From NCBI GenBank assembly GCA_964484315.1, contig CAZAEF010000002.1:1-36050 (forward strand): a stretch of DNA of 36,050 bases, given 5' to 3'. The translations under genes were made by a program, and so were the position numbers. A model generated the notes under the pieces. It saw nothing but the letters and a program-made list of their open reading frames with translations, searched no databases and was not told the DNA's origin. Origin of the DNA: an uncultured Candidatus Saccharibacteria bacterium (GTDB taxonomy: Bacteria; Patescibacteriota; Minisyncoccia; Phycocordibacterales; PALSA-1337). Below, one piece after another: positions 9,888 through 32,568 of this stretch. The number at the start of each line of letters is the position of its first letter. Position 1 is the first letter of the stretch.

Positions 9888-10094
9888 ATGTACAAACCTA
9901 ATAAAATTCTTATAACTTTTGTTTATTTAGTTTTCGCAAGTTTGCCAACTTTTGGACTAGTAATTGTTATTTTAAACAGAAGTGTTTCTCCAGAGGTTCT
10001 TACTTGGTATGTATGTCTAGCGTTTGGTCTTATCGTGATCGGGATTTGGTATACAGTTATTAAAACTTTGGTTAAAGTTTGGAGAGGTTATTAA
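9888..10094 (+). CDS. Small two-TM membrane protein
   Basis: 68-aa ORF with two hydrophobic helices. No homology recognised. Confidence 0.35.
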   Translation: MYKPNKILITFVYLVFASLPTFGLVIVILNRSVSPEVLTWYVCLAFGLIVIGIWYTVIKTLVKVWRGY

Positions 10095-10154: not shown

Positions 10155-10703
10155 ATGAAAAATATTGACGAGATCAGCAAAGAACGGGCTAAAAAACTGT
10201 TCGGTAGTCAAGAAATTGAAAGTTTTGAGACCGGTACAGCAAAAGGGTTGCAACAAATTCACGAATATTTGTTCGGTGGTCTTTACGATTTTGCTGGCCA
10301 AATCCGCGTGAAAGATATAAGCAAGGGTGGTTTCCGATTTGCGTCACATTTATATCTGCTAGAGAGTCTAAATAAAATCGGAGAAATGCCGGATAGGACT
10401 TTTGAAGAAATAGTAGCAAAATATGTGGAAATAAATATTGCTCATCCTTTTATGGAAGGCAATGGTCGGAGTATGAGAATTTGGCTAGATTTGATCCTGA
10501 AAAAAAATCTCAAACAATGTGTTGATTGGGCCATGATAGACAAATCCAATTATTTGAACGCTATGCAACGCAGTCCAGTGAACGATCTCGAAATTCGTGA
10601 GCTTTTGCGTTCTGCTCTGACTGACAAGATTCACGACCGAGAAGTTTTTATGAAGGGAGTAGAGCAATCATATTATTACGAAGAAGAAGGTTTTTATAAG
10701 TAG
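10155..10703 (+). CDS. fic: Fic family protein, class III (NmFic-like AMP transferase with C-terminal inhibitory helix)
   Basis: Fic motif [12 protein letters not shown] (HxFx[DE]GNGRxxR). C-terminal EQSYYYEE fits the Sxxx-E autoinhibition motif. 182 aa, with overall resemblance to Neisseria NmFic as I recall it. Confidence 0.8.
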
Positions 10704-13448: not shown

Positions 13449-13498
13449 TATCTTTTGGCTAGTTCACAAATCAATTCCGTTTGGAATATGATTGCGGG

Positions 13499-13816
13499 AT
13501 GGAGATAATCATCTGGAATCAAAAAACTGAAAAATTCATCAGAGATCTTGAAAAAGATAGTCAATCTCGTGTATATAAAACCATTCGCATTTTGAAAGAA
13601 CTGGGTAATAGGATTTCCATGCCCGATTCTAAAAGTCTAGAGAAGGGTTTATTTGAGCTAAGGATTGTGGGAAGAAGCCACATAAGAATATTATATGTAT
13701 TTCACAAAGATAAGGCATATCTTATCCATGGGTTTATCAAGAAAGTTTGGAAAATAACTACAAAGGATATTAATTACGCTAGACGTATTCAAAAGGAAAT
13801 TGAGAAACTTGATTAG
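13499..13816 (+). CDS. Type II toxin, Gp49/HigB-like (RelE superfamily)
   Basis: LEKGLFELRIVGRSHIRILYVFHKDKAYLIHGFIKK matches the Gp49/DUF891 pattern (..LYELRI...YRILYFF....IVLLHGF.KK). Followed by an XRE antitoxin gene. Start set at ATG 13499. Confidence 0.8.
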   Translation: MEIIIWNQKTEKFIRDLEKDSQSRVYKTIRILKELGNRISMPDSKSLEKGLFELRIVGRSHIRILYVFHKDKAYLIHGFIKKVWKITTKDINYARRIQKEIEKLD

Positions 13817-13817
13817 T

Positions 13818-13833
13818 ATAACATATATGTTAT
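13818..13833. promoter_or_regulatory. Perfect 16-bp palindrome ATAACATATATGTTAT between toxin and antitoxin genes (operator candidate)
   Basis: Read directly from the sequence. Lies in the 29-nt toxin-antitoxin spacer. Confidence 0.5.
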
Positions 13834-13845
13834 CATGGTAGTGTT

Positions 13846-14112
13846 ATGAAAAATTTTAAACAACTTGAATCTGAATTTCTAAGTGATCTAGAGAATAAGA
13901 AGGCCTATGATGATCTCGAGGTTGAATTTGCCATTTATACTGCTTTGATCAAAGCTAGATTAGAAAAGAAACTCACCCAAAAGCAATTGGCTGACAATCT
14001 TGGAATAGCACAGTCTGCACTTGCGCGTTTTGAATCTGGCCGAGGAAATCCGACACTTTCATTTCTTAAAAAGATTACGAGGGGGTTGGGATTGAAGCTG
14101 ACAATTCTCTAG
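13846..14112 (+). CDS. XRE-family HTH antitoxin (HigA-like)
   Basis: LTQKQLADNLGIAQSALARFESGRGNPTLSFL is a classic Cro/C1 HTH. 88 aa, immediately downstream of the toxin. Confidence 0.8.
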   Translation: MKNFKQLESEFLSDLENKKAYDDLEVEFAIYTALIKARLEKKLTQKQLADNLGIAQSALARFESGRGNPTLSFLKKITRGLGLKLTIL

Positions 14113-14146
14113 GTGTGTGATTTTTGGTTTCCATGAGATAATTTGA

Positions 14147-14155
14147 TGGTATAAT
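14147..14155 (+). promoter_or_regulatory. Extended -10 promoter TGGTATAAT
   Basis: Exact TGnTATAAT, 7 nt upstream of a 21-codon ATG ORF (14163-14228) and ~100 nt upstream of the 14253 ORF. Confidence 0.4.
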
Positions 14156-14252
14156 AAAGCCTATGCGAAAAGAAGAAGTCATCTTTAAAACCTCGCCGAT
14201 CACTCGGTTGGCTTTATGGGAAATTTAAAAATAGGAATAATAATAAATTAAT

Positions 14253-14522
14253 TTGAAAAAATTTAATTACACACTTTTTGGAGGTATGATTGGGATACCT
14301 ATTGGGATTGGATTGTCCGTACTTCTATTATTGACTTCTCTTGGATCAGGACTCATGTATCTATTTTCAAGCATAGCGTCATTTGTAGAGTTGGTATTGC
14401 CTGGTCAGTCGAATGATACACAAAAGGCCTTATTGATAACTATATTTATTTCTATATGGCTGTCACTCGGATCTATTTGTGGTTTTGCATACGGAAAATA
14501 CAAGAACAGAAATGGGGTATAA
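14253..14522 (+). CDS. Small membrane protein
   Basis: 89-aa ORF (TTG start, uncertain) with three hydrophobic segments. No motif. Confidence 0.35.
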   Translation: MKKFNYTLFGGMIGIPIGIGLSVLLLLTSLGSGLMYLFSSIASFVELVLPGQSNDTQKALLITIFISIWLSLGSICGFAYGKYKNRNGV

Positions 14523-22872: not shown

Positions 22873-23796
22873 ATGCATAAAGTACGCGTAGGTATTCTCC
22901 GTGGAGGTCCGAGTAGTGAATATGACGTATCTCTACAGACTGGAGCGACTATTCTCAAACATATTCCTGAGGACTTATATACTCCTCAAGATATTTATAT
23001 TTCTCGAGAGGGAGTGTGGCATAAGAATGGTATAGCCATATCTCCACACAATGCTCTAGCGCATATAGATGTAGTATGGAATGCTCTTCATGGACAATAC
23101 GGTGAGGATGGAAAGGTTCAACATATACTTGAATTTCATAAGATACCATACACAGGATCCAATTCATTTTCCTCTATGTTGGGTATGAATAAGATATTGT
23201 CGAAAGAGATTTTCAAAAAAGAAAAAATAAAGACGCCTCATTACAAATCCATTACCACACAACCAGAGGAAGAAAATATGCGGGATATATTTAGATCATT
23301 TTCAGTGCCATTTATCGTGAAGCCTGTATCTGCCGGGTCATCTGTAGGAGTGACGCTCGTAAAGGATTTTGTCTCATTTGAGATGGCACTTGCAAAAGCG
23401 TTCGAGCATAGCCCGAGTGTCCTTATTGAAGAATATATATCAGGAAGGGAAGCGACAGTCGGAATTATAGATGGTTACAGAGATCATGTGCATTATGCTC
23501 TGCCACCAATAGAGATACGTCCGCATGCAGAAAATATTATTCCTGGTAATTTTACTCTTGCGGAAAAAAGAGAACTCGAAGATCTTGCTCGTCGAGTCCA
23601 TCAGGTTCTCGGTCTCCGGCATTATTCTCGTACAGACTTTATCGTATCACCAAACAGAGGGATTTTCGTACTCGAGGTTAATACCTTACCTGGCATGACT
23701 GAGTCTTCACTCATGCTCAAGGCTCTTGATTTCGTCGGAGCTCCAATGTCGCATTTTCTGGATCATGTATTGCAGTTGGCACTACAAAAGAAATGA
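22873..23796 (+). CDS. ddl: D-alanine--D-alanine ligase
   Basis: VRVGILRGGPSSEYDVSLQTG N-terminus, an ATP-grasp region (FIVKPVSAGSSVGV) and EVNTLPGMT. Confidence 0.9.
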   Translation: MHKVRVGILRGGPSSEYDVSLQTGATILKHIPEDLYTPQDIYISREGVWHKNGIAISPHNALAHIDVVWNALHGQYGEDGKVQHILEFHKIPYTGSNSFSSMLGMNKILSKEIFKKEKIKTPHYKSITTQPEEENMRDIFRSFSVPFIVKPVSAGSSVGVTLVKDFVSFEMALAKAFEHSPSVLIEEYISGREATVGIIDGYRDHVHYALPPIEIRPHAENIIPGNFTLAEKRELEDLARRVHQVLGLRHYSRTDFIVSPNRGIFVLEVNTLPGMTESSLMLKALDFVGAPMSHFLDHVLQLALQKK

Positions 23797-24303: not shown

Positions 24304-24376
24304 GGGCCCTTAGCTCATCTGGTAGAGCACCTCATTTGCAATGAGGGGGTGGCAGGTTCGAGTCCTGTAGGGTCCA
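24304..24376 (+). tRNA. tRNA-Ala (anticodon UGC)
   Basis: 73-nt cloverleaf folded by hand. Acceptor GGGCCCT/AGGGTCC with the G3:U70 Ala identity pair. D stem GCTC/GAGC. Anticodon stem CCTCA/TGAGG with loop TT-TGC-AA. T stem GCAGG/CCTGT with loop TTCGAGT. Discriminator A. CCA is not encoded. Confidence 0.92.
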
Positions 24377-24381
24377 CCGGC

Positions 24382-24418
24382 AAAAGAAAAGGCGTCACGA
24401 AGTGATGCTTTTTCTTTT
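24382..24418 (+). terminator. Long hairpin terminator directly after tRNA-Ala
   Basis: AAAAGAAAAGGCGTCAC / GTGATGCTTTTTCTTTT, about 17 bp including two G:U pairs, with a T-rich 3' arm. Confidence 0.6.
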
Positions 24419-24420
24419 GT

Positions 24421-24511
24421 CCGGAGGGAGGCGGCGGGACTCGAAAGACGGAGGCGACTTAGGTCGCCGAGTCAGGGTCGGGAACCGCTTCAGCAGAAGC
24501 GGATTCCTGAC
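24421..24511 (+). other. GC-rich triple-hairpin element abutting a second copy of the tRNA 3' end
   Basis: 60 of 91 nt are G/C by my count. Perfect hairpins GGCGAC-TTAG-GTCGCC (24453-24468) and CCGCTTC-AGCA-GAAGCGG (24485-24502), the latter enclosed by GTCAGG/CCTGAC (24471-76 / 24507-12). Confidence 0.5.
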
Positions 24512-24530
24512 CGAGTCCTGTAGGGTCCAC
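24512..24530 (+). repeat. A-repeat copy A2: exact 19/19 copy of the tRNA-Ala 3' end (CGAGTCCTGTAGGGTCCAC)
   Basis: Identical to 24359-24377 inside the tRNA. The TT of the T loop is not included, so this is not a functional tRNA arm. Confidence 0.9.
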
Positions 24531-24787
24531 AGACAGTTTCAGCTCTTTATGAAAAAAGTGATAAAATTCTTCAGCCTCCTTTGGTCGAAGATTCAAAAAT
24601 ACAGACAGTCAGCACCAACCATGACAGAGTTGGTCAAGACGCACGGTGACTTTTATTGGTCACTGCATAGGCATAGTGCTGAATAAGCCTTGTCGACATC
24701 TCATACCTCGTTTCAGAAATGAACCGCGGTTTTTTTTTATTTAACTCTATCTTTCTTGAGTACCATCTTCAGATACTCCACTTCCTT

Positions 24788-24810
24788 AACAAACTGGTTC
24801 CAAAATGAAA
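24788..24810 (+). repeat. B-repeat copy B0 (truncated/diverged)
   Basis: AACAAACTGGTTCCAAAATG matches the first 20 nt of the B core at 18/20. Upstream flank AGTACCATCTTCAGA resembles the B3 flank AGTATCATCTTCAAT. Confidence 0.6.
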
Positions 24811-24834
24811 GTTTTTTGTTGACTTAAACGATTC

Positions 24835-24843
24835 TGGTATACT
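24835..24843 (+). promoter_or_regulatory. Extended -10 promoter TGGTATACT for NYN gene 1
   Basis: TGnTATACT ends 9 nt before ATG 24853. Confidence 0.45.
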
Positions 24844-24852
24844 ACAGTCATA

Positions 24853-25362
24853 ATGGAGAATACTAAAGATAAAAATATTGCTTTTATAGATAGTCAAAAT
24901 CTAAATCTAGGTGCGCGGGAACTTGGTTGGAAAATCGACTACAGAAAATTTAGAGTATACTTGCGTGAAAAATATGATGTTGAAAAAGCATACATGTTTA
25001 TTGGTTTTGTCGCTCTGAACCAGAGTCTATATGATAATCTTCAAGAATCTGGTTTCATTCTGAGGTTCAAGCCAACTATTCCTGATTTTGATGGAAAGAT
25101 AAAAGGAAATGTAGATGCTGATATGGTGTTGAGTGCAATGATAGAACGGAATGATTACGATAAGGCAGTTATCGTTTCAAATGACGGTGATTTCTATTCT
25201 TTGGTTGAACATTTATATATAAATAATAAACTAGAGGTAGTTTTAAGTACGAATAGAAAATTTTGCTCGAGTTTACTTGCTCAATCTGCTAAAGAAAAAA
25301 TTCAATACGTCGATGATCTTAGAGAAAAAATAGAGTATACAAAAAAGAAAAGCACCGCTTAA
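24853..25362 (+). CDS. NYN (LabA/DUF88-like, PIN-fold) nuclease domain protein, paralogue 1
   Basis: NIAFIDSQNL, KGNVDADMV and IVSNDGDF correspond to the three acidic motifs of NYN domains. Confidence 0.75.
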   Translation: MENTKDKNIAFIDSQNLNLGARELGWKIDYRKFRVYLREKYDVEKAYMFIGFVALNQSLYDNLQESGFILRFKPTIPDFDGKIKGNVDADMVLSAMIERNDYDKAVIVSNDGDFYSLVEHLYINNKLEVVLSTNRKFCSSLLAQSAKEKIQYVDDLREKIEYTKKKSTA

Positions 25363-25383
25363 GGACGAACCTTAAGAAGTGCT
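25351..25383 (+). terminator. Hairpin overlapping the NYN1 stop codon
   Basis: AGCAC..CTTAAGG-ACGAA-CCTTAAG..GTGCT (7+5 bp), followed by a T/C-rich tract. Confidence 0.45.
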
Positions 25384-25471
25384 TCTCTCTATTGATACAT
25401 CAAAATAATACCATAGGTGTTATAAATAATGCAAGTAGTATTTTTATAGTCGATCTTCTCTCAAAATACCC

Positions 25472-25526
25472 TCAATCTCTCACATTTCTTAGCAAACTGG
25501 TTTCAAAATGCGATACTGAAGTCCAC
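25472..25526 (+). repeat. B-repeat copy B1 (36-nt core at 25491-25526 plus conserved 5' flank)
   Basis: Core AGCAAACTGGTTTCAAAATGCGATACTGAAGTCCAC is identical to B3 and B4. The 55-mer matches B3 at 54/55. Confidence 0.9.
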
Positions 25527-25527
25527 A

Positions 25528-25567
25528 AAAATAGAAAAGTCCGGCTGATGCCGGATTTTTCTATTTT
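25528..25567. terminator. 17-bp A/T-flanked hairpin (bidirectional terminator-like)
   Basis: AAAATAGAAAAGTCCGG-CTGATG-CCGGATTTTTCTATTTT. Confidence 0.6.
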
Positions 25568-25585
25568 CTGAGTCCCTAAAAAGAA

Positions 25586-25603
25586 GAGTCCTGTAGTGTG
25601 CAC
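25586..25603 (+). repeat. A-repeat copy A3 (diverged tRNA 3'-end copy)
   Basis: GAGTCCTGTAGTGTGCAC against GAGTCCTGTAGGGTCCAC, 16/18. Confidence 0.7.
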
Positions 25604-25611
25604 AATTACCC

Positions 25612-25641
25612 TTGACAAATAGCACAAAGCTGTGCTATTTT
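25612..25641 (+). promoter_or_regulatory. Promoter with embedded 9-bp inverted repeat, upstream of the methyltransferase
   Basis: TTGACA-N18-TATTTT. The spacer holds AATAGCACA-AAGC-TGTGCTATT (25618-25639). AAGGA lies 7 nt before GTG 25684. Confidence 0.5.
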
Positions 25642-25683
25642 GTTTTTATATAGTTCCAAAACAATTTAACCAAAGGATCATTT

Positions 25684-26520
25684 GTGCTTATAGCTATTTT
25701 AGGTAGACGTAATTGGCTCGCATATTTCTTATGGAGATGGATCTTTCGAGCTAACGGCTCAAGTTGCACCGAACTCGACCGATATTTTTTCGGCCCGAGC
25801 CACGGATTGAACGATTACGATAGCCTCGCTTTAAATTATAAGAGGTCTAACGTAAAACCTGACAAGGCCTACTCCATTCTGCCTACGGTGCTTGAAATGG
25901 TAGGGGACTGCAAAGGTAAGACCTGTACTGATATTGGCTGCGGTGGAGGTTTCTTTTCACTCGCACTTGCACAGCAAGGCGCATCGCAGGTCTATGGCCT
26001 GGATAATTCACGTGAGCAGCTCACGCTTGCCTTGCAGTTTGCGATCCATCCTGCAATCACATATGTCCTGCGTGATGTTTTCCTCGAAAAACTCATGCCG
26101 ACCGATGTTATTGTTGCTGCATTTGTCACAAATTACGCATCCTCAAAGCCGATCCTGCAGCACTTCTTCCGTCAATTATATGACGGACTGAATGAGGGAG
26201 GAAAAGTAATTCTTGTGATCGATCTTCCGAATAGTAGAGAGCTTAAACGTTTCGGAGCGATAAAAAGAATTCAAGGAGCTGTTCGTGATGAGGCTCCTAT
26301 CGAAATCACACTCTTTAATGAGAGCACACCGATCTGTAATCTGAATGCATTCTATTACACACCAGTAACGATCGAATCGGTTCTACGCGAGGTTGGCTTT
26401 CGTGGAATTAGTTGGCACAAGCCGATCGTTTCTGAGGAAGGGATAACTGCAATAGATGAAAAATTCTGGGAGGGGTACACGGATGATCCAGAGCTCGGCT
26501 ACATCTTGGCTGAAAAATAA
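25684..26520 (+). CDS. Class I SAM-dependent methyltransferase
   Basis: Motif I CTDIGCGGGFFSLALA, GLDNS, then GGKVILVI. GTG start with an AAGGA RBS. Substrate not inferable. Confidence 0.75.
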   Translation: MLIAILGRRNWLAYFLWRWIFRANGSSCTELDRYFFGPSHGLNDYDSLALNYKRSNVKPDKAYSILPTVLEMVGDCKGKTCTDIGCGGGFFSLALAQQGASQVYGLDNSREQLTLALQFAIHPAITYVLRDVFLEKLMPTDVIVAAFVTNYASSKPILQHFFRQLYDGLNEGGKVILVIDLPNSRELKRFGAIKRIQGAVRDEAPIEITLFNESTPICNLNAFYYTPVTIESVLREVGFRGISWHKPIVSEEGITAIDEKFWEGYTDDPELGYILAEK

Positions 26521-26524
26521 CAAA

Positions 26525-26556
26525 AGCGCATCAGCAATGATGCGCTCTTACTTTTA
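26525..26556 (+). terminator. Rho-independent terminator
   Basis: AGCGCATCA-GCAA-TGATGCGCT, a 9-bp stem followed by CTTACTTTT. Confidence 0.6.
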
Positions 26557-26594
26557 TCCTCCCTCAAAATCATTCTTAGTTTCTTACATTCCTT

Positions 26595-26630
26595 AGTAGA
26601 CTGGTTCCAGAAAGATATACTGGAGCCCAC
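26595..26630 (+). repeat. B-repeat copy B2 (diverged, 27/36)
   Basis: AGTAGACTGGTTCCAGAAAGATATACTGGAGCCCAC. Its 3' flank CAAACGGCGAGCATAGAAAATTGACT parallels the B3 flank CAAACGACGAGCGTACACAAATTTGACT. Confidence 0.75.
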
Positions 26631-26650
26631 CAAACGGCGAGCATAGAAAA

Positions 26651-26684
26651 TTGACTACATTATAAGTACATGTTATTGTATAAT
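26651..26684 (+). promoter_or_regulatory. Promoter of cassette 3
   Basis: TTGACT-N17-TATTGT preceded by TGt (extended -10), with an overlapping TATAAT. An AAAGG RBS lies before ATG 26723. Confidence 0.45.
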
Positions 26685-26722
26685 ATAGTTCTTGTTAAAC
26701 AATTCAACAGAGAAAGGTATGC

Positions 26723-27355
26723 ATGTTAAAAACAAATTACACCAGAAATGATGTGGAGAAGTATCTGCAGAATACTTCATATCCACCAAGACTCGCAACA
26801 GTAGCGTTACTCCATCTTGACTGTCGAAATCAGTCGGAAATTGCAAGGAGAATTAGGATAGTACATCAAGGAGTGAACAAAATCATTCAGCAATGCCAGG
26901 AGCTAATTATCTGGCACAAGAGACTCGATCAATTTCGGTCACTGGAAAAACACATCCTTATGGAGAAGCAGGTTACTGAAGTATTTCCTAGTCACTGGGA
27001 GACTACCAGAATCTTAGCTTATGCAAACTGTCATAATCTATATCAATTGATGGGAATTCAGTATGGTTACCTGATTAAATATAGAAATATAGGTCCTGGC
27101 GGAATCATCAGACTCAATTCAGTATTGTCATTCTTGGGATGTCAGACGATCGATCCTAATGATAATGTTCTGCCATCTGAATTAAAGAAGTTCGTTTCTG
27201 CATATTTTTGTACAGTATTCAGACAATCACGACAGACATCGAAAGCATTAGCTGAGGTTTATGAAAAAAACAAGTGGGGATTGGTATTTGTCAGATCACT
27301 TGGGGAAAAGAAATTGTATCCACCACCATGTTTCTTCTTTAAAAACAGCGAATGA
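26723..27355 (+). CDS. Hypothetical DNA-binding protein (N-terminal HTH, central RpoA-CTD-like helix-hairpin-helix)
   Basis: NQSEIARRIRIVHQGVNKIIQQ looks like a sigma-region-4/LuxR-type HTH. TTRILAYANCHNLYQLMG...YRNIGPGGIIRLNSVL resembles the RNA polymerase alpha CTD pattern (R..N.L......V.DL......L..I.N.G.KS..EI). Confidence 0.45.
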   Translation: MLKTNYTRNDVEKYLQNTSYPPRLATVALLHLDCRNQSEIARRIRIVHQGVNKIIQQCQELIIWHKRLDQFRSLEKHILMEKQVTEVFPSHWETTRILAYANCHNLYQLMGIQYGYLIKYRNIGPGGIIRLNSVLSFLGCQTIDPNDNVLPSELKKFVSAYFCTVFRQSRQTSKALAEVYEKNKWGLVFVRSLGEKKLYPPPCFFFKNSE

Positions 27356-27372
27356 AGTTATTGTTTCTAAAA

Positions 27373-27405
27373 AGGTTGTGAGTTTAAATGCTCTCAACCT
27401 TTTTT
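27373..27405 (+). terminator. Rho-independent terminator
   Basis: AAGGTTGTGAG-N8-CTCTCAACCTT followed by TTTTT. Confidence 0.6.
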
Positions 27406-27467
27406 ATATAGTGAATCGCAGGGTGGGGTAATTTACGCCAAAACTTTATCTGCTTTTAGTATCATCT

Positions 27468-27522
27468 TCAATCTCTCGCATTTCTTAGCAAACTGGTTTC
27501 AAAATGCGATACTGAAGTCCAC
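27468..27522 (+). repeat. B-repeat copy B3 (36-nt core at 27487-27522)
   Basis: Core identical to B1 and B4. The flank is conserved with B1. Confidence 0.9.
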
Positions 27523-27544
27523 CAAACGACGAGCGTACACAAAT

Positions 27545-27573
27545 TTGACTTTAATCAGCCCTCGGTATAATAT
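27545..27573 (+). promoter_or_regulatory. Promoter with no ORF downstream (faces the 3' end of the minus-strand NYN gene)
   Basis: TTGACT-N15-TATAAT, or N17-TAATAT. The next plus-strand element is the hairpin at 27595-27631. Confidence 0.4.
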
Positions 27574-27594
27574 ACAGAAGTATTCATACGAAGA

Positions 27595-27631
27595 GGGATC
27601 CGAAAGGTGCTTGTGCCTTAGGAGCCCTTTT
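27595..27631. terminator. Hairpin terminator shared by the short plus-strand unit and the minus-strand NYN gene
   Basis: GGGATCC..AAGG..CCTT..GGAGCCC followed by TTTT on the plus strand. Lies 4 nt beyond the NYN2 stop on the minus strand. Confidence 0.5.
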
Positions 27632-27634
27632 CAT

Positions 27635-28165
27635 TTATAGGGTTTGATTATTGTACTCAATATATGATTTGAGGTTATAGAGATAGTCAAAATATTCAGA
27701 ACCGAATTGCTTATATAGTGAAGATGCAAATTTTTTATTCGGAAATAGGACTTTGGCCAACTTATTCTTCTTTAGAAGATAATCAACAAGCTTTTTATAA
27801 TCGCCATCACCCGACACAAGAATTATTTTATTAAAATCAGGCTCATCAATTAACTTTTTCAATACTTCAAAAACTATATCCGTATCAACATTACCTTTCT
27901 TTCGGCCAATCATTACTGGATTATGCTCTTTGAATATTAAAGTAAAGCCGGCATTCTCAAGATTGGCGTATAATCCACGCTCCTTTTCGGTTGAATAGCC
28001 TAAGAAATAATATGCTGTAGTTATATCATATTTTTCCTTGAGATATATTCTTAATTTTATATGATCAATAGCCCACCCATCATCTTTTGACCCAAAGTAA
28101 AGATTCTGTCCATCGATGAAAGCGATGTTAGTGGTATTTGGAATTGTTGATAGGGATTCATTCAT
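27635..28165 (-). CDS. NYN (LabA/DUF88-like) nuclease domain protein, paralogue 2
   Basis: NIAFIDGQNL, KGNVDTDIV and LVSGDGDY. Collinear similarity to the 24853..25362 product along its full length. Confidence 0.75.
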   Translation of the reverse strand: MNESLSTIPNTTNIAFIDGQNLYFGSKDDGWAIDHIKLRIYLKEKYDITTAYYFLGYSTEKERGLYANLENAGFTLIFKEHNPVMIGRKKGNVDTDIVFEVLKKLIDEPDFNKIILVSGDGDYKKLVDYLLKKNKLAKVLFPNKKFASSLYKQFGSEYFDYLYNLKSYIEYNNQTL

Positions 28166-28171
28166 TGCAGC

Positions 28172-28180
28172 ATCATACCA
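28172..28180 (-). promoter_or_regulatory. Extended -10 promoter TGGTATGAT (minus strand), leaderless configuration
   Basis: The reverse complement of ATCATACCA reads TGGTATGAT and ends 6 nt before the ATG at 28165. Confidence 0.45.
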
Positions 28181-28259
28181 CCGCTTGAATTCAAATATCT
28201 TTTGAATTGTGTATTTCGAGGGGATAACTTGTCAGTACAACCACGTGAGAATTCCTAGT

Positions 28260-28278
28260 CGAGTCCTGTAGGGTCTAC
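28260..28278 (+). repeat. A-repeat copy A4 (18/19 copy of the tRNA-Ala 3' end)
   Basis: CGAGTCCTGTAGGGTCTAC. It also shares ATTCCT-N3 upstream with copy A2, and that segment is absent from the tRNA itself. Confidence 0.85.
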
Positions 28279-28282
28279 AAAC

Positions 28283-28311
28283 TTGACAAATACACCGAAT
28301 ATGTGTATAAT
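28283..28311 (+). promoter_or_regulatory. Consensus sigma70 promoter immediately after A4
   Basis: TTGACA-N17-TATAAT. The spacer contains the inverted repeat ATACAC-N7-GTGTAT. Confidence 0.65.
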
Positions 28312-28437
28312 TGTATAAGGGTTCATTAAGTATCTAGCCTACTTTCCTCGGTAGAGGAAGACAAAGTTGCCATTACTGGGTACGGCGGCAACCGAGCTAG
28401 CATTCTCCCACATCCGTAGGGGTGCAAGAAAGAATGA

Positions 28438-28485
28438 GTATTCCTTATCTTATCGACAATCACGTCGGTGGAAACAAAGGAATAC
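28438..28485 (+). promoter_or_regulatory. Leader hairpin sequestering the putative RBS of the 28487 ORF
   Basis: GTATTCCTT (28438-46) pairs perfectly with AAGGAATAC (28477-85). AAGGA in the 3' arm lies 5 nt before ATG 28487. Confidence 0.45.
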
Positions 28486-28486
28486 T

Positions 28487-29002
28487 ATGCATATCATCAA
28501 ATGGTTCATCAAAAAAGCACAAAAATTAGTTCAAGTTTGCAAAAACTACAAGTCAGACAGGCAGATTGAAAAGTGGTATTTCACTCTTACAGATGAAGAG
28601 TTGCGTCAATGGATTAATCCAGCGACGGACGATCAACTGTCGGAGAAAGAGTATTGCCAGCCGATTGATCTCGAAGAAGAGCTACGCAAATGCGAAGAGC
28701 GTCAAGCGTTGGCTGAAATAGAGATCAGAAAGCGAGACAATGCTGAAGCTCTCAAGCAAGAGGAAGCTGAAAAGGCTCGCTACCAAGAGTTAGTGGATGA
28801 ATGGCCGTGCCAGGACTGTGGGGAATTTGGTTCCAAGTGCACCTGCACTCCGGACGAAGACGACCACGAGCTTGAAGTTCCACAAATGGGACTGCCTGGC
28901 CACGAGGAGGAAGAAATTCCTTTGTGGCTCGAGCATGCCAACGAAGAATGTCCGAACTGCGGACTTCTGCCAGAGTTCTGTCAGTGTCAGTACGAAGAGT
29001 AG
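28487..29002 (+). CDS. Acidic protein with duplicated CxxCG-x5-CxC knuckle motifs
   Basis: 172 aa from ATG 28487. CQDCGEFGSKCTC and CPNCGLLPEFCQC are embedded in Glu/Asp-rich sequence, after a central charged helical segment. The track start (TTG 28367) lies in the structured leader and is less likely. Confidence 0.5.
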   Translation: MHIIKWFIKKAQKLVQVCKNYKSDRQIEKWYFTLTDEELRQWINPATDDQLSEKEYCQPIDLEEELRKCEERQALAEIEIRKRDNAEALKQEEAEKARYQELVDEWPCQDCGEFGSKCTCTPDEDDHELEVPQMGLPGHEEEEIPLWLEHANEECPNCGLLPEFCQCQYEE

Positions 29003-29021
29003 AGGGTGTTACAACCCAAAG

Positions 29022-29059
29022 ACCCGCTTAGCAACGAAAGTTGTGGCGGGTTTTCTTCT
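29022..29059 (+). terminator. Rho-independent terminator
   Basis: ACCCGC..CAAC-GAAA-GTTG..GCGGGT followed by TTTTCTTCTT. Confidence 0.6.
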
Positions 29060-29070
29060 TGAAGATGATG

Positions 29071-29076
29071 TATAAT
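29071..29076 (+). promoter_or_regulatory. -10 element TATAAT, leaderless configuration, for the HAD gene
   Basis: TATAAT ends 6 nt before ATG 29083. Preceded by TG. Confidence 0.4.
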
Positions 29077-29082
29077 TTCCGT

Positions 29083-29703
29083 ATGAAGAATATTATTTTT
29101 GATTGGTCTGGCGTAGTCCGAGACACAGTGACGAACCAAATGTGGATTGTTAATCACATATTTAAAAAATATGAAGTAGGGGAGATATCCACGGAAGAAT
29201 TCAGGGAAAATTGGACACAGCCACCCGCTCTTTTTTATCAAAAATATTTACCCGAAGGTTATGACGAAGCGGAACGGTCAAAATTGTTTCAGAAATTACA
29301 ATTAGACAAAGACTGTCCAAAAGCAACCTCATTTCCTGAGGTGGTACAACTCATACACAAATGCAAAGAAAAGGGCTATTTTCTTGCCGTCGTAAGTTCT
29401 GATTTTCCCGAGACATTACTTCCTGAAGTAAAGCAATATGGACTAGAAAACGTTTTTAGAGAAATTATTACAGATGCAAATGATAAATTGCCACCAACTC
29501 AGAAAATAATTAAAGAAAACAATTTAAACCTAGAAGATACATTTTTTGTTGGAGATAGTAATCATGAGGTAGATGTAGCCAAAGAGACAGGGATTAAAAG
29601 TGTGGTAGTCACATGGGGTTTCACTAGTGAGAGTAAATTAAGAGCTAGAAATCCAGATTATATGGCTCATAATGCTAAGGAATTGGAAGGTGTTATTTTA
29701 TAG
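29083..29703 (+). CDS. HAD-superfamily hydrolase (phosphoglycolate-phosphatase-like)
   Basis: Motif I IIFDWSGVV (nucleophile Asp present, Asp+2 replaced by Ser), motif II AVVSS and motif IV VGDSNHEVD. Confidence 0.7.
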   Translation: MKNIIFDWSGVVRDTVTNQMWIVNHIFKKYEVGEISTEEFRENWTQPPALFYQKYLPEGYDEAERSKLFQKLQLDKDCPKATSFPEVVQLIHKCKEKGYFLAVVSSDFPETLLPEVKQYGLENVFREIITDANDKLPPTQKIIKENNLNLEDTFFVGDSNHEVDVAKETGIKSVVVTWGFTSESKLRARNPDYMAHNAKELEGVIL

Positions 29704-29743
29704 AGTCTTCCTTCAGTATTATCTTTAAGTATTCTGTCTCTCT

Positions 29744-29779
29744 AGCAAACTGGTTTCAAAATGCGATACTGAAGTCCAC
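29744..29779 (+). repeat. B-repeat copy B4 (36-nt core)
   Basis: Identical to the B1 and B3 cores. Starts 41 nt after the HAD stop. Confidence 0.9.
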
Positions 29780-29786
29780 AAAAAAT

Positions 29787-29814
29787 TTGACAAGTTTTAA
29801 ATTATATGTAATCT
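29787..29814 (+). promoter_or_regulatory. Promoter 7 nt after B4, with a 12-bp palindrome at the -10/start region
   Basis: TTGACA-N16-TAATCT. TCTAGTACTAGA (29812-29823) is a perfect palindrome. A GGAG RBS lies 7 nt before ATG 29875. Confidence 0.5.
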
Positions 29815-29874
29815 AGTACTAGATCTGTATCCTATCTGTTTTGAAAACTTAACAACCAACCAATTGGAGTCATT

Positions 29875-30360
29875 ATGAAAACGAATGAAGACCTTAAGCT
29901 TGTCATAGCCGTCAGACATGGTGAATACACTAATCATGGTCAGAGAGGTTTGAATGATTTGGGAAGACAGCAGTCGCAACTTTTCGCTACGAAACTTCGG
30001 GCAATTATTCCTCAGGAATACTCGGTCGAAATCTTTTCCTCGATCCTTACAAGGGGACAAGAGACCGCCGAAATTCTTGCCTCACATCTCGGAGCAACTA
30101 CGAAGATGCTCTATGAACTTTGCTCAGATGATTTTATAGATGGTGAAGAAAAACGTCAGGCTATCCTCAAGTCTGTAAATGGCTCCGATGCTATCGTTAT
30201 CGTTGCTCACTACACCTCGCCCTCGGGCATCATCAACGCCTTCAGTGAGTATCATTTCAAGAAGCAAGTGAGTCCCCAGGAAACAAAAAAAGGGAACGGT
30301 CTTATGTTAGATCTCTGTTCTGGTAAAGTCGTGACCGACTTAATGGATCACACCTCGTAA
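29875..30360 (+). CDS. Histidine phosphatase superfamily protein (SixA/PGAM-like)
   Basis: VAVRHGEY (RHG motif), SSILTRGQETAE and IVIVAHY (second catalytic His region). Confidence 0.75.
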   Translation: MKTNEDLKLVIAVRHGEYTNHGQRGLNDLGRQQSQLFATKLRAIIPQEYSVEIFSSILTRGQETAEILASHLGATTKMLYELCSDDFIDGEEKRQAILKSVNGSDAIVIVAHYTSPSGIINAFSEYHFKKQVSPQETKKGNGLMLDLCSGKVVTDLMDHTS

Positions 30361-30377
30361 GTTTTTTGGTTTCAAAG

Positions 30378-30415
30378 AAGGAGCTTAGTACGCAACTACT
30401 AAGCTCCTTTTATTT
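30378..30415 (+). terminator. Rho-independent terminator (13-bp perfect stem)
   Basis: AAGGAGCTTAGTA-CGCAAC-TACTAAGCTCCTT followed by TTATTT. Confidence 0.7.
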
Positions 30416-30472: not shown

Positions 30473-30515
30473 TGACTTACTCAATTATTTATTATCTTTT
30501 GCGAGATTTTCTCTC

Positions 30516-30794
30516 TCAATCTAACTTTGTGCACTTCCTCTGCCTCTCCCATTTTATACCCTCTTTGAAGACGGCTGTTAGGATGTCTGCAAAGACAAAT
30601 GCCGGTGTTTCATCAGAACCCCAATCACCTTTGAGCAGTGTGAATAGAGCCTTGTCCACCTCCACATTTTCTTTATTTGTGGGGGTCGATATGATGAGAA
30701 GAGGTTCCTTATTCCACAACGGAGATGGATTTTTGTCCGCTACAGGAACAACTAAGAAAACCCCTGACGGTTGCATATATACAGCAATGAACAT
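30516..30794 (-). CDS. Hypothetical protein
   Basis: The minus-strand ORF has AAGGA 5 nt before ATG 30794 and its own terminator. The overlapping plus-strand ORF 30472..30837 looks non-protein-like. Confidence 0.45.
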   Translation of the reverse strand: MFIAVYMQPSGVFLVVPVADKNPSPLWNKEPLLIISTPTNKENVEVDKALFTLLKGDWGSDETPAFVFADILTAVFKEGIKWERQRKCTKLD

Positions 30795-31698: not shown

Positions 31699-32568
31699 AT
31701 GTATTTAATTATCCTCTATTATAAATATATCTACATCGAAAATCCCGAGGCGATTACAGCATTGCAGAGGGAACTATGCATTCGTCTTGATCTAACCGGA
31801 CGGATTATCATTGCACATGAAGGGATAAATGGGACTTTGGAAGGTACAGCGGATAATATAGAAAAATATATAAAAGAGACGAAGAAAATCAAAGAGTTCA
31901 GCGATATTAATTTTAAAAAAAGTGAAGGACAAGGTCGGTCTTTTCCGAAACTTTCAGTCAAGCTTCGCAAAGAGATAGTAACACTTGGTCGTCCTAATAT
32001 TTTCCCTATACCTAGTGAGACTGGCGCTGACTATATGAATGCAGAAGATCTCCATATGCTTCTCGAAAAAAAGAAGGACGAAGTGGTCGTTCTCGATATG
32101 AGAAATGAGTATGAATTGAAAGTAGGTAAATTCGATTCTTCTATTGCTCTTCCTGTGCAGAACTTTCGAGAGATACCTGCCCATGCGAGAGAACTAGAAA
32201 AATATAAGAATAAGACTGTGGTGGCAGTATGTACTGGTGGGGTTAGATGTGAAAAGGGTACAGCGTATCTCAAACAGGAGCTTGGTTTCGAACATATTTA
32301 TCAACTTCATGACGGTATTGTCACCTACATGACGAAATATCCCAGAGGTCATTTCAAAGGAGCTCTCTATGTTTTCGACGGACGAGTGACAATGCGTACC
32401 GATGGTATGCCTGTAGAAGTTATTGGGAAATGCGAATTGTGTGGGTCAGCATCAGAGAAATTCGTGAATTGCTCACTAGCTAAATGTCACAAGCACTTTA
32501 TCGTTTGTCTTACTTGTTTAGAAAAATCAGGTGGTGAAAAGAAAATAGTATGTGACAAAGAGCACTAA
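31699..32568 (+). CDS. trhO: Rhodanese-domain protein of the YceA/TrhO family (tRNA U34 hydroxylase)
   Basis: ILYYKYIYIENPE...GRIIIAHEGINGTLEG N-terminal UPF0176 pattern, rhodanese active-site loop CTGGVRCEK and a C-terminal Cys cluster. Confidence 0.8.
   Translation: MYLIILYYKYIYIENPEAITALQRELCIRLDLTGRIIIAHEGINGTLEGTADNIEKYIKETKKIKEFSDINFKKSEGQGRSFPKLSVKLRKEIVTLGRPNIFPIPSETGADYMNAEDLHMLLEKKKDEVVVLDMRNEYELKVGKFDSSIALPVQNFREIPAHARELEKYKNKTVVAVCTGGVRCEKGTAYLKQELGFEHIYQLHDGIVTYMTKYPRGHFKGALYVFDGRVTMRTDGMPVEVIGKCELCGSASEKFVNCSLAKCHKHFIVCLTCLEKSGGEKKIVCDKEH

What the first reader, a model, noticed from the sequence alone, without database searches (positions are those of the whole stretch)
24304..30415. 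tRNA-Ala-anchored array of self-contained single-gene cassettes separated by two families of junction repeats (integron-like, but built on a tRNA 3' end)
tRNA-Ala(UGC) lies between the core genes ddl and trhO. It is followed by about 6 kb in which nearly every gene is an isolated unit with its own sigma70-like promoter, one ORF and its own hairpin terminator, ending in a conserved junction repeat.

Two junction families are present.
- Family A is the last 19 nt of the tRNA (24359-24377). It is copied at 24512-24530 (19/19), 28260-28278 (18/19) and 25586-25603 (16/18).
- Family B is a 36-nt core. It is identical at 25491-25526, 27487-27522 and 29744-29779, diverged at 26595-26630 (27/36) and truncated at 24788-24810.
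- Both families end in GTCCAC, which is the acceptor 3' strand plus the discriminator base.

Serial site-specific integration of small circles into a tRNA 3' end would leave exactly this pattern: tRNA-core-P' ... P-core-P' ... P-core-B'. The result resembles an integron array, except that the cassettes carry their own promoters and terminators and attB is a tRNA.

No integrase or recombinase is encoded anywhere in the window, so any enzyme would have to act in trans. Base composition looks heterogeneous by eye; the methyltransferase and the acidic Cys protein appear more GC-rich.

The cargo is typical of conflict or accessory regions:
- two NYN nuclease paralogues
- an orphan methyltransferase
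- an HTH protein
- an acidic Cys-knuckle protein
- HAD and histidine phosphatases
Basis: partly seen in the sequence, partly recalled or inferred. Interest (0 to 1): 0.85.

Follow-up and report, generated by a model that had tools for sequence, protein, structure and literature searches.

The report
Serine-recombinase cassette array at tRNA-Ala
The repeats that separate the genes downstream of this tRNA-Ala are leftover attachment sites of a large serine recombinase whose gene runs across its own attachment site, so this is a recombinase-less gene-cassette island of a kind already described for Dehalococcoides, here in miniature.

Summary
tRNA-Ala(UGC) lies between ddl and a trhO-like gene. 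Three copies of its last 18-19 nt (family A) and five copies of a ~60-85-nt repeat (family B) separate mostly single-gene units.

Read on the minus strand from GTG GAC (the shared GTCCAC core), family B encodes a conserved ~27-residue peptide under purifying selection. That peptide is the native C-terminus of a CcrB/XisF-like large serine recombinase (LSR).

In relatives with the same uvrB-uvrA-uvrC-ddl-tRNA-Ala synteny, the LSR gene sits next to the tRNA and reads into it. A B element lies at the far end of the inserted DNA. Tandem junctions B-core-LSR are in phase.

So B is the P arm of attP plus the detached last codons of the LSR gene, that is, an attR scar.

The window holds no LSR body. 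One cassette (promoter, 210-aa gene, terminator) recurs in another genome, again between B elements, at another array position and with other neighbours. It is more conserved than ddl.

The integron comparison fails on every defining feature. The closest precedent is the Dehalococcoides ssrA islands.

The parts
24304..24378 (+). tRNA-Ala(UGC). Its 3' end (GGTTC of the T arm, 17 nt, then GTCCAC at 24372-24377) is the chromosomal left arm and core of the attachment site.
   Evidence: In relatives the LSR ORF reads into the homologous tRNA.
24379..24460 (-). Flank of the tRNA core: an 18-21-bp hairpin with a T run (24381-24419), then GC-rich DNA. It is either the native tRNA terminator (B') or the last ~27 codons of a decayed LSR gene (VASVFRVPPPPSGQKKKHHFVTPFLLP|VD).
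   Evidence: -28.8 kcal/mol. Searches give weak LSR-profile hits (E 0.003) dominated by the part read from the tRNA. Unresolved.
24512..24530 (+). A1: a 19/19 copy of the tRNA 3' end with core GTCCAC. Its left flank GGATTCCTGACC is shared with A3. On the minus strand it reads VDPTGLGQESASAEAVPDPDSAT*.
   Evidence: (D3).
24740..24823 (-). B1: LSR tail plus P arm (VNKKLSFWNQFVKEVEYLKMVLKKDRVK*), with the core mutated to GTTGAC, now the -35 of the NYN-1 promoter.
24819..25376 (+). Cassette: promoter, NYN-domain gene (24853-25362) and hairpin.
25467..25526 (-). B2: P arm plus tail, with TGA at the Trp codon and the distal tail degraded. Core at 25521-25526.
25528..25567 (.). 18-bp perfect hairpin directly after the B2 core. 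It resembles the hairpins after the tRNA core here and after B cores in L023 and L014, so it is probably a former tRNA terminator (B' arm), which would make B2 a true attR.
   Evidence: (I8).
25586..25603 (+). A2: a diverged copy of the tRNA 3' end (16/18) with core GTGCAC, followed by promoter family P1.
25612..26546 (+). Cassette: P1 promoter with a palindromic spacer, SAM-dependent methyltransferase (25684-26520) and terminator (26525-26546).
26544..26630 (-). B3: intact tail (VGSSISFWNQSTKECKKLRMILREDKSKS) plus P arm, core GCCCAC. It is 79% identical over 106 nt, hairpin included, to a B unit of L012.
26651..27410 (+). Cassette: promoter, 210-aa protein of unknown function (26723-27355) and terminator. 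The whole block is 79% identical in DNA to L028 1336-2095, where it also lies between two B elements.
27442..27522 (-). B4: P arm plus tail (VDFSIAF*NQFAKKCERLKMILKADKVLA*). Core at 27517-27522.
27635..28235 (-). NYN-domain gene 2 (27635-28165) with its upstream region. It is the only cargo gene on the recombinase strand.
28260..28278 (+). A3: copy of the tRNA 3' end (18/19) with core GTCTAC. Its left flank GAATTCCTAGTC is shared with A1. It is followed by a perfect P1-type promoter.
   Evidence: (D3, D10).
28283..29703 (+). Two-gene unit: promoter, acidic Cys-rich protein (28487-29002), terminator and HAD hydrolase (29083-29703).
29696..29779 (-). B5: P arm plus tail (VDFSIAF*NQFARETEYLKIILKEDSIK*). 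Core at 29774-29779. Its distal end overlaps the HAD stop codon.
29788..30411 (+). Cassette: promoter, histidine-phosphatase-family gene (29875-30360) and terminator (30376-30411).

Best explanation
The 6 kb downstream of tRNA-Ala(UGC) is an integration island built by a CcrB/XisF-like large serine recombinase (LSR) that targets the 3' end of this tRNA.

Shown:
- In this LSR family the open reading frame runs across the element's own attP.
- The crossover lies in GTGGAC (Val-Asp), the reverse complement of the tRNA's GTCCAC.
- On integration the recombinase gene body ends up next to the tRNA and reads into it.
- Its last ~27 codons, together with the P arm of attP (GGTTCC 22 nt from the core), are carried to the far end of the inserted DNA. 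That detached piece is family B.

Inferred:
- Repeated integration at the tRNA-proximal site stacked elements in tandem.
- The recombinase genes then left or decayed, and their cargo stayed behind as promoter-gene-terminator units, each ending in a B scar.
- Family A copies are direct repeats of the tRNA 3' end starting in the T loop. They are the signature left when an attP shares ~19 nt with the tRNA. Their exact origin is not settled.
- Because every B keeps a P arm, the units may be cis-mobilizable: a recombinase element landing at the tRNA could excise with any downstream B, which would also rebuild its full-length gene.
For: 1. Coding signal in B.
- From GTG GAC every B copy, in five or more genomes, reads VD.SIAFWNQF.KE.E.LK.ILKEDK..*.
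- In that frame pN/pS is 0.42, against 0.73 and 1.07 in the other two frames. Stop codons number 2, against 25 and 16.
- Nucleotides 1-33 are 70% conserved as DNA. Nucleotides 34-81 are only 39% conserved, yet stay conserved as protein.

2. The peptide belongs to an LSR.
- The ORF next to tRNA-Ala in L014 has homologues with Pfam Recombinase, Resolvase and Zn_ribbon_recom domains.
- 25 family members end in ..VDPxGxEPxTSSLQMRRST, which is tRNA-Ala(UGC) read backwards.
- P0014, P0017 and P0018 end in B-type tails, in phase after VD.
- Full-length members of 500-560 aa carry native tails with the same FW..-E...L..IL helix.
- A full-length viral LSR has GTGGAC-N15-TTGGAACC at the same spacing.

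3. Anatomy in relatives.
- The order tRNA-Ala(UGC) | LSR reading into the tRNA | cargo | B holds in L014, L019, L021, L023 and L024.
- Four of these share the window's uvrB-uvrA-uvrC-ddl synteny.
- L021 shows the tandem junction B-core-LSR#2 in phase.

4. Site geometry. GGTTC lies 17 nt from the core in the tRNA and 22 nt from it in every B. This matches the attB/attP half-site offset I recall for LSRs.

5. Cassette test.
- The block 26651-27410 is 79% identical to L028, where it lies between B elements at another array position and with other neighbours.
- The adjacent ddl is only 64% identical in DNA and 57% in protein.
- L028 is a clean tRNA-core-[promoter-gene-terminator-B-core]n array.

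6. Only the tRNA and B are shared between the window and the relatives. No cargo is shared.

7. Precedent. Dehalococcoides ssrA islands have the same logic (PMC3146451).
Against: - No LSR body, and no convincing remnant of one, is present in the window. The link therefore rests on homology of B and on synteny with relatives.
- Three window B copies carry TGA at the conserved Trp codon and share an identical 37-nt P arm. That points to decay plus gene conversion, not recent activity.
- Right-hand flanks of the cores are heterogeneous: promoters, hairpins and a 16-nt extra block.
- Family A copies are absent from all relatives examined, and their generation is not explained mechanistically.
- No circular junction, empty site or within-population polymorphism was seen. 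All same-strain contigs are collinear.
- No recombination assay exists for this LSR family.
Confidence: 0.8

Rival explanations
1. Pure accretion and decay. Each B marks the end of a once complete LSR element (recombinase plus one or two genes). The recombinase genes were later removed by ordinary deletions. The units are fixed debris and were never mobile on their own.
For: - Relatives show stages of LSR decay. N-terminal truncations occur in L014, L019, L021 and L023, an internal deletion in L021 LSR#2, and a 1-nt frameshift in L024.
- The window's B copies carry a nonsense codon.
- There is a weak LSR-3'-like remnant right of the B4 core (E 0.009).
Against: - In L012, L024, L028 and the window, promoters start 4-9 nt after the core with no recombinase remnant. 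Random deletions would have to end exactly at the core many times.
- The L028/window cassette is more conserved than ddl and sits at a different array position.
Confidence: 0.35
2. Family A repeats come from a separate, classical tyrosine-integrase island system that crosses over in the T loop and carries a replacement tRNA 3' end. They would be unrelated to the LSR that made family B.
For: - A tDNA plus displaced 3' fragments that start in the T loop is the standard Islander signature (PMC4383910).
- A copies are lineage-specific and absent where only the LSR is seen.
- A1 and A3 share a left flank (D3).
Against: - No tyrosine recombinase is present in the window or in any related locus (and the gene tables).
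- Dehalococcoides islands show 20-bp direct repeats of the ssrA 3' end with insertion in the T loop, attributed there to a putative (untested) serine recombinase.
- The A copies end in the same core, and A2 and A3 are followed by the same promoter family that follows a B in L012.
Confidence: 0.2
3. Family B is a cis-regulatory element (operator or UP-like element), or an independent small gene or sRNA that serves the downstream promoters. It would not be a recombination scar.
For: - B always lies upstream of a promoter.
- It contains a near-palindrome, AAACTGGTTT.
- Every copy starts with GTG, a possible start codon.
Against: - The distance from B to the -35 varies from about 4 to 38 nt.
- The conservation pattern is that of a coding region on the opposite strand.
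- The peptide is contiguous and in phase with LSR ORFs.
- There is no Rfam match and no stable fold.
- B is confined to the region downstream of tRNA-Ala in every locus examined.
Confidence: 0.03
4. A true integron-type system: a tyrosine IntI acting on folded single-stranded attC-like sites, with the tRNA serving as attI.
For: The only support is architectural: an array of short gene units, each followed by a conserved site.
Against: - B has no attC-like hairpin as single-stranded DNA (z-scores from -1.5 to +1.5).
- The cassettes have their own promoters.
- There is no IntI. The recombinase associated with these sites in relatives is a serine recombinase.
Confidence: 0.02

Closest known systems
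Dehalococcoides ssrA-specific genomic islands with the DsiB serine recombinase (McMurdie et al. 2011, PMC3146451)
   Same: - Tandem islands lie downstream of a tRNA-like gene and are bounded by ~20-bp direct repeats of its 3' end that start in the T loop.
- A CcrB-like large serine recombinase sits on the reverse strand next to attL, with its 3' end always overlapping attL.
- Many islands lack an integrase and are read as cis-mobilizable elements.
- The authors already speculated that the recombinase is complete only on the circle, or downstream of an island that carries the missing 3' fragment.
   Different: - The target here is tRNA-Ala(UGC), not tmRNA.
- Units are mostly single genes of 0.7-1.5 kb, not islands of 10-30 kb.
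- The six-gene integration module (DsiA, RecF-like, ParB, Mom and others) is not seen in the related loci.
- A second junction family (B) shares only 6-9 nt with the target and is shown here to encode a selected recombinase tail.
- Homology of this LSR to DsiB was not tested, because no DsiB sequence was at hand.
SCC / SCCmec elements and CcrAB/CcrC (from my own knowledge and as summarised in PMC3146451)
   Same: - Large serine recombinases integrate cassettes at the 3' end of one conserved gene.
- Composite tandem arrays are separated by repeated integration-site sequences.
- Recombinase-less pseudo-SCC units can be moved in trans.
- CcrB is the best NCBIfam hit of this LSR family (E about 1e-30, far below the cut-off).
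   Different: - The SCC target is rlmH (orfX), not a tRNA.
- The att site does not lie inside the ccr ORF.
- Membership is not met: the score is 100-106 bits against a cut-off of 900.
Tycheposons and tRNA-proximal islands of Prochlorococcus (bioRxiv 10.1101/2020.12.28.424599)
   Same: - Repeated integration at one tRNA pushes older elements further into the island.
- Partial tRNAs and fragmented integrases are scattered through the island.
- Cargo modules are left behind.
   Different: - 910 of 937 elements use tyrosine recombinases.
- No attP inside the recombinase ORF is reported.
- The elements are larger.
Integrons
   Same: An array of short gene units, each ending in a conserved recombination site, next to a fixed primary site.
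   Different: - Integrons use a tyrosine IntI, folded single-stranded attC sites, promoterless cassettes and a common Pc promoter.
- None of these features is present here.
Archaeal SSV-type 'suicidal' integrases (PMC8371274)
   Same: The att site lies inside the integrase ORF, so integration into a tRNA gene partitions the gene.
   Different: - Those are tyrosine recombinases, stated there to be exclusive to archaea.
- The SSV-type gene is partitioned by integration. Here only the last ~27 residues are exchanged, for ~20 residues read from the tRNA.
Integration-dependent immunity of mycobacteriophage BPs (PMC4557955)
   Same: attP lies inside the 3' part of a gene, so integration changes the C-terminus of its product and thereby its activity.
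   Different: - The gene is the repressor, not the recombinase.
- The integrase is a tyrosine recombinase (my own recollection; not stated in the abstract I read).
- A functional switch is demonstrated there and is only conjectured here.

Membership tests
Integron | IntI-type tyrosine recombinase next to the array | tested here: not met
   No recombinase is present in the window. The recombinase at the homologous locus in relatives is a serine recombinase.
Integron | attC sites: imperfect palindromes that fold as single-stranded hairpins | tested here: not met
   Six B units were folded as single-stranded DNA. Energies are -1 to -7 kcal/mol and z-scores -1.5 to +1.5.
Integron | Promoterless cassettes expressed from a common Pc | tested here: not met
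   Consensus-like promoters follow most junction cores, with a perfect 12/12 site at 28283.
Large serine recombinase integrative element | Recombinase with Resolvase catalytic domain, Recombinase domain and zinc-ribbon/coiled-coil region | tested here: inconclusive
   Met in relatives. PF00239, PF07508 and PF13408 occur across the family, and full-length examples include P0039, P0040 and L026. Not met in the window itself. Most close members have lost the ribbon cysteines.
Large serine recombinase integrative element | Short attP/attB sites sharing a small core, with attP half-sites longer than attB half-sites | tested here: met
   The GTCCAC core is shared. GGTTC lies 17 nt from the core in the tRNA and 22 nt from it in all B variants.
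Large serine recombinase integrative element | Demonstrated attP x attB recombination, with excision dependent on a directionality factor | not testable with these tools
   This needs an in vivo or in vitro assay.
ssrA-GI-type tandem islands (Dehalococcoides, PMC3146451) | Recombinase gene on the reverse strand next to attL, with its 3' end overlapping attL and the tRNA-like gene | tested here: met
   Seen in L014, L019, L021, L023, L024 and L027. 25 family members carry tails read from the tRNA. The window keeps only the sites.
ssrA-GI-type tandem islands (Dehalococcoides, PMC3146451) | Tandem islands bounded by ~20-bp direct repeats of the target's 3' end that start in the T loop | tested here: met
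   Family A has three copies of 18-19 nt starting at C|GAGTCC in the T loop. They are absent from the other loci.
ssrA-GI-type tandem islands (Dehalococcoides, PMC3146451) | Six-gene integration module (DsiB, DsiA, RecF-like, ParB, Mom, large protein) | tested here: not met
   The gene tables of L019, L021, L023 and L024 show no such module next to the LSR.
ssrA-GI-type tandem islands (Dehalococcoides, PMC3146451) | Recombinase orthologous to DsiB | not tested
   No DsiB sequence was available. Both are CcrB-like (PMC3146451).
Classical tyrosine-integrase tDNA island | tDNA plus displaced tDNA 3' fragment flanking the island | tested here: met
   Family A.
Classical tyrosine-integrase tDNA island | Tyrosine integrase gene within the island | tested here: not met
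   None in the window and none in the related loci.

The most novel reading that the evidence does not exclude
A serine-recombinase counterpart of the integron, working as a 'cassette shuttle'.
- Each promoter-gene-terminator cassette ends in a P arm plus the last ~27 codons of the recombinase gene.
- A minimal LSR element sitting at the tRNA could therefore excise with any downstream B. It would carry away zero to several cassettes and at the same stroke rebuild its own full-length gene.
- Excising with the nearest B would leave the cassettes behind.
- The swap between the native tail (on the circle) and the tRNA-encoded tail (in the chromosome) would act as a built-in directionality or activity switch.
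Probability: 0.3. Interest if true: 0.85.

Novelty: new variant of a known kind. Interest (0 to 1): 0.6.

Why it matters
- It names the enzyme and the sites behind a hypervariable, defence-flavoured gene array in an uncultured small-genome bacterium.
- It shows that large serine recombinases can target a genuine tRNA gene. A 2014 reference work stated this was unknown (PMC4383910).
- It gives sequence-level evidence for an idea only speculated for Dehalococcoides: that the recombinase gene is completed by a 3' fragment lying at the other end of the element. The evidence is purifying selection, phase continuity and full-length native tails.
- If the tail swap controls activity, it would be a new, self-contained directionality device for serine integrases, which are widely used in genome engineering.
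- The family also offers natural attP/attB pairs anchored on a universally conserved tRNA end.
- The single-gene cassettes with portable promoters suggest an integron-like gene-exchange economy run by a different enzyme class.

Tried and rejected
- First minus-strand frame for B (..WTSVSHFETSLLRNVRD*, with stops in register). Rejected because all three L012 copies have an in-frame TAG. The GTG GAC frame then won on pN/pS and stop counts.
- Rfam. Nothing but the tRNA reached threshold; the low-scoring hits are noise.
- B as an attC-like hairpin. Rejected.
- Profile of the 27-aa tail against 5.8 billion proteins. It found only two tiny ORFs. The link to a long protein came instead from the ORF next to tRNA-Ala in L014.
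- The genome-collection hit L009 (Dehalococcoidia). It lies inside an unrelated 228-aa ORF and is a chance match.
- B pattern in viral contigs. No matches.
- LSR remnants in the window, by tblastn and by a family HMM against all six-frame fragments. Only the stretch overlapping the tRNA scores.
- Copies of the tRNA 3' end in relatives. None.
- Homologues of window cargo in the related loci. None at E below 1e-3.
- Circularity of the 2.1-kb contig that carries a full-length LSR. There is no terminal overlap.
- An inverted GAACC motif in the P' arm. It is clear only in L014; the other loci have GAAA or GAAT in a hairpin loop. The dyad centre inside GTCCAC is therefore an inference.
- Same-strain contigs. 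All are collinear, so no polymorphism was available.
- Taxonomic placement of the source organism. Not determined.

Full report
**1. The observation**

ARAGORN and Rfam place tRNA-Ala(UGC) at 24304-24378. It lies between Ddl (22873-23796) and a UPF0176/rhodanese TrhO-like gene (31699-32568).

- The last 18 nt of the tRNA recur at 24513 (exact), 28261 (1 mismatch) and 25586 (2 mismatches). Chance would give 0.01 matches.
- A second repeat has five copies (D1). Three share an identical 33-mer, in fact 37 nt.
- Neither repeat occurs elsewhere in the window.
- Both end in GTCCAC or a close variant.
- Promoter-like and terminator-like sites are enriched about two- to threefold over shuffles.
- G+C is uneven.
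- No recombinase is encoded in the window.

The description is therefore correct, with one exception. The 'truncated' B copy is a full-length copy whose core has mutated to GTTGAC and now serves as a -35 hexamer.

**2. What family B is**

Pattern scans for B in public collections found copies in other uncultured bacteria.
- One copy follows an NYN gene in a MAG (L010).
- Three copies in a 2.4-kb groundwater contig each separate single genes (L012).
- Further copies lie downstream of a tRNA-Ala(UGC) in a third organism (L011, L013, L014).

Read on the minus strand from GTG GAC, every copy encodes VD.SIAFWNQF.KE.E.LK.ILKEDK followed by a stop.
- Codons differ mainly at synonymous positions. pN/pS is 0.42 in this frame, against 0.73 and 1.07 in the other two.
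- This frame has 2 stop codons over 10 copies, against 25 and 16 in the others.
- The first 33 nt (core plus GGAACCAGTTT) are 70% conserved as DNA across 11 variants. The next 48 nt are only 39% conserved, yet stay conserved as protein.

B is therefore a DNA site fused to a piece of a real coding region.

**3. The protein it belongs to**

In L014 an ORF directly downstream of tRNA-Ala, on the opposite strand, reads into the tRNA and crosses GTG GAC in the same phase.
- Its homologues carry the Recombinase, Resolvase and zinc-ribbon recombinase domains.
- Their best named relatives are CcrB and XisF, far below family cut-offs. This is a large serine recombinase (LSR) family.
- A profile search finds 573 close representatives at E of 1e-30 or better.

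Among the proteins held here that retain the conserved WFQFPxG end:
- 25 finish with ..VDPxGxEPxTSSLQMRRST, which is tRNA-Ala(UGC) read backwards.
- Three finish with B-type tails directly after VD.
- Full-length enzymes of 500-560 aa carry native tails with the same FW..-E...L..IL helix.

A full-length LSR on a high-GC viral contig has GTGGAC-N15-TTGGAACC at exactly the B spacing. Its reverse complement contains GGTCCACCA, the tRNA 3' end with CCA.

The B peptide is thus the native C-terminus of the recombinase, and GTGGAC is where chromosome and element sequences are joined.

**4. Anatomy in relatives**

Four independent relatives have the window's synteny, uvrB-uvrA-uvrC-ddl-tRNA-Ala(UGC). 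In each, the LSR gene lies next to the tRNA and reads into it. Cargo follows, and a B element sits at the far end (L019, L021/L022, L023, L024/L025). L014 and L027 show the same at other chromosomal positions.
- L021 shows a tandem pile-up: tRNA-core-LSR#1-cargo-B-core-LSR#2, with B in phase with the decayed LSR#2.
- The recombinase genes are at various stages of decay: N-terminal truncations, an internal deletion, and a 1-nt frameshift seen in two samples.
- On the tRNA-sense strand the recombinase's 3' coding region folds into a hairpin followed by a T run in six of six loci. The element therefore supplies a terminator to the tRNA it lands behind.
- GGTTC of the tRNA T arm lies 17 nt from the core. 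GGTTCC of every B lies 22 nt from it. This fits the attB/attP half-site offset that I recall for serine integrases.

**5. The window in this light**

The five B copies are attR-type or attP-type left arms.
- The window contains no recombinase body. An HMM of the family against all six-frame fragments hits only the stretch overlapping the tRNA.
- Three B copies share a TGA at the conserved Trp codon and an identical 37-nt P arm. This suggests relaxed selection plus gene conversion.
- The hairpin after the B2 core resembles those after the tRNA core here and after B cores in L023 and L014. It is probably a former tRNA terminator.

**6. Are the units cassettes?**

No window cargo protein has a homologue in the recombinase-bearing relatives. 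Only the tRNA and B are shared.

The 210-aa protein does have a 73% identical homologue in L028.
- L028 reads ddl, tRNA-Ala-core, promoter, 55-aa gene, terminator, B-core, promoter, 210-aa gene, terminator, B-core, promoter, next gene.
- It has no recombinase and no A copies.
- DNA identity between the window and L028 is 79% over promoter, gene and terminator (26651-27410). The terminator and its flanks form a stretch of about 47 identical bases (columns 829-876).
- ddl next door is only 64% identical in DNA and 57% in protein.
- The flanking B copies are only generically similar, the neighbours differ, and the position in the array differs.

It favours units that move, or are exchanged, between B sites. 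It does not show how.

**7. Family A**

The A copies start in the T loop (C|GAGTCC). A1 and A3 share a left flank, G(G/A)ATTCC. A2 and A3 are followed by the same promoter family that follows a B in L012 and the real tRNA in L028. They are absent from all the relatives.

Direct repeats of about 20 bp of the target's 3' end, starting in the T loop and associated with a putative serine recombinase, are what was described for Dehalococcoides ssrA islands. I therefore read A as attR-type sites of an attP that shares 19 nt with the tRNA. A separate tyrosine-integrase system is not excluded.

**8. Comparison with what is known**

- Integron membership fails on all three features tested.
- The closest precedent is McMurdie et al. 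2011 (PMC3146451). It describes tandem islands behind the tRNA-like ssrA gene, a CcrB-like recombinase whose 3' end always overlaps attL, and integrase-less islands read as cis-mobilizable elements. It also speculates that the gene is complete only on the circle.
- SCC elements, tycheposons, archaeal 'suicidal' integrases and BPs integration-dependent immunity each share one aspect.
- A 2014 reference work stated that serine integrases were not known to target tRNA genes. I found no paper describing this family at tRNA-Ala.

**9. Verdict**

The finding is real and explained. It is a recombinase-less array of attachment-site scars and cargo genes, made by a tRNA-Ala-specific large serine recombinase whose ORF spans its own attP.

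It is a new variant of a known kind.

New here:
- the tRNA target;
- the single-gene scale;
- the evidence that the detached tail is a selected part of the enzyme;
- one documented cassette shared between arrays.

The shuttle mechanism and the tail-swap switch remain conjecture.

Noticed in passing
window 25611-25645 and 28282-28311; L012 ~1255-1305 (minus strand); L028 950-985: A promoter family (CTTGACAAATA...) follows A2, A3, a B copy in L012 and the real tRNA in L028. Its spacer holds an inverted repeat that is kept through paired changes: AATAGCAC/GTGCTATT, AATAACAC/GTGTTATT and ATACAC/GTGTAT. This may be an operator for a common repressor.
   Followed up: partly
L014, L019, L021, L023, L024 and L027, the 40-50 nt right of the tRNA core: On the tRNA-sense strand the last codons of the recombinase gene fold into a hairpin followed by CTCTTTTGYCTTG. 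The element seems to bring a terminator for the tRNA inside its own coding sequence.
   Followed up: partly
window 25490-25526, 27486-27522 and 29743-29779: Three B copies share an identical 37-nt P arm, including the same TGA at the Trp codon, while their distal tails and both flanks differ. Identity confined to the half-site suggests gene conversion. No explanation was tested.
   Followed up: no
window 24420-24512: A 93-nt stretch with 66% G+C in a ~38% G+C region lies between the tRNA terminator hairpin and A1. It contains a hairpin (GGAACCGCTTC/GAAGCGGATTCC). Its origin is unknown.
   Followed up: no
LSR family alignment A3, columns ~275-310: Most close members have lost the zinc-ribbon cysteines (FVxxPxGxKLTGSWSKG..YxFYRF). 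More distant members (P0033, L026) keep the CGxCG..YYxC pattern.
   Followed up: no
L014 13100-13150; L026 6797-6806 and 6885-6894: TTGGAACC occurs twice as a direct repeat. One copy is in the recombinase body (the conserved FGT motif, 50-90 nt before the core). The other is in the tail (FWN, 15 nt after the core). The two are read in different frames.
   Followed up: no
L019 3387-4906: A second, unrelated full-length serine recombinase (502 aa) reads into tRNA-Ala(GGC) in a different phase. Reading into a tRNA is therefore not unique to one LSR family.
   Followed up: no
L024 ~9940-9960 and L025: The otherwise intact LSR has a 1-nt frameshift at FLENT|LANISQFDNE, and the same split gene calls (135 aa + 364 aa) appear in assemblies from two different samples. 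It could be a fresh pseudogene or a programmed frameshift.
   Followed up: partly
L028 790-835: A partial duplicate of the 5' end of tRNA-Ala and its upstream 12 nt (AATGTGTTACATGGGCTCGTAGCT) lies 70 nt upstream of the tRNA.
   Followed up: no
window 13481-14500: A Gp49/HigB-like toxin gene (and, on the same-strain contig, an HTH_3 antitoxin) is inserted between the two halves of a split transketolase.
   Followed up: no
window 4192-4935 and 10155-10703: A Bro-N domain protein and a Fic/DOC protein lie among core metabolic genes. These are further accessory or conflict-type genes outside the array.
   Followed up: no
window 30490-30540: The stretch TATTATCTTTTGCGAGATTTTCTCTCTCAATCT...GTGCAC weakly resembles the distal part of a B element plus a degenerate core (D8). 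It may be a sixth, nearly erased junction beyond the histidine phosphatase gene.
   Followed up: no
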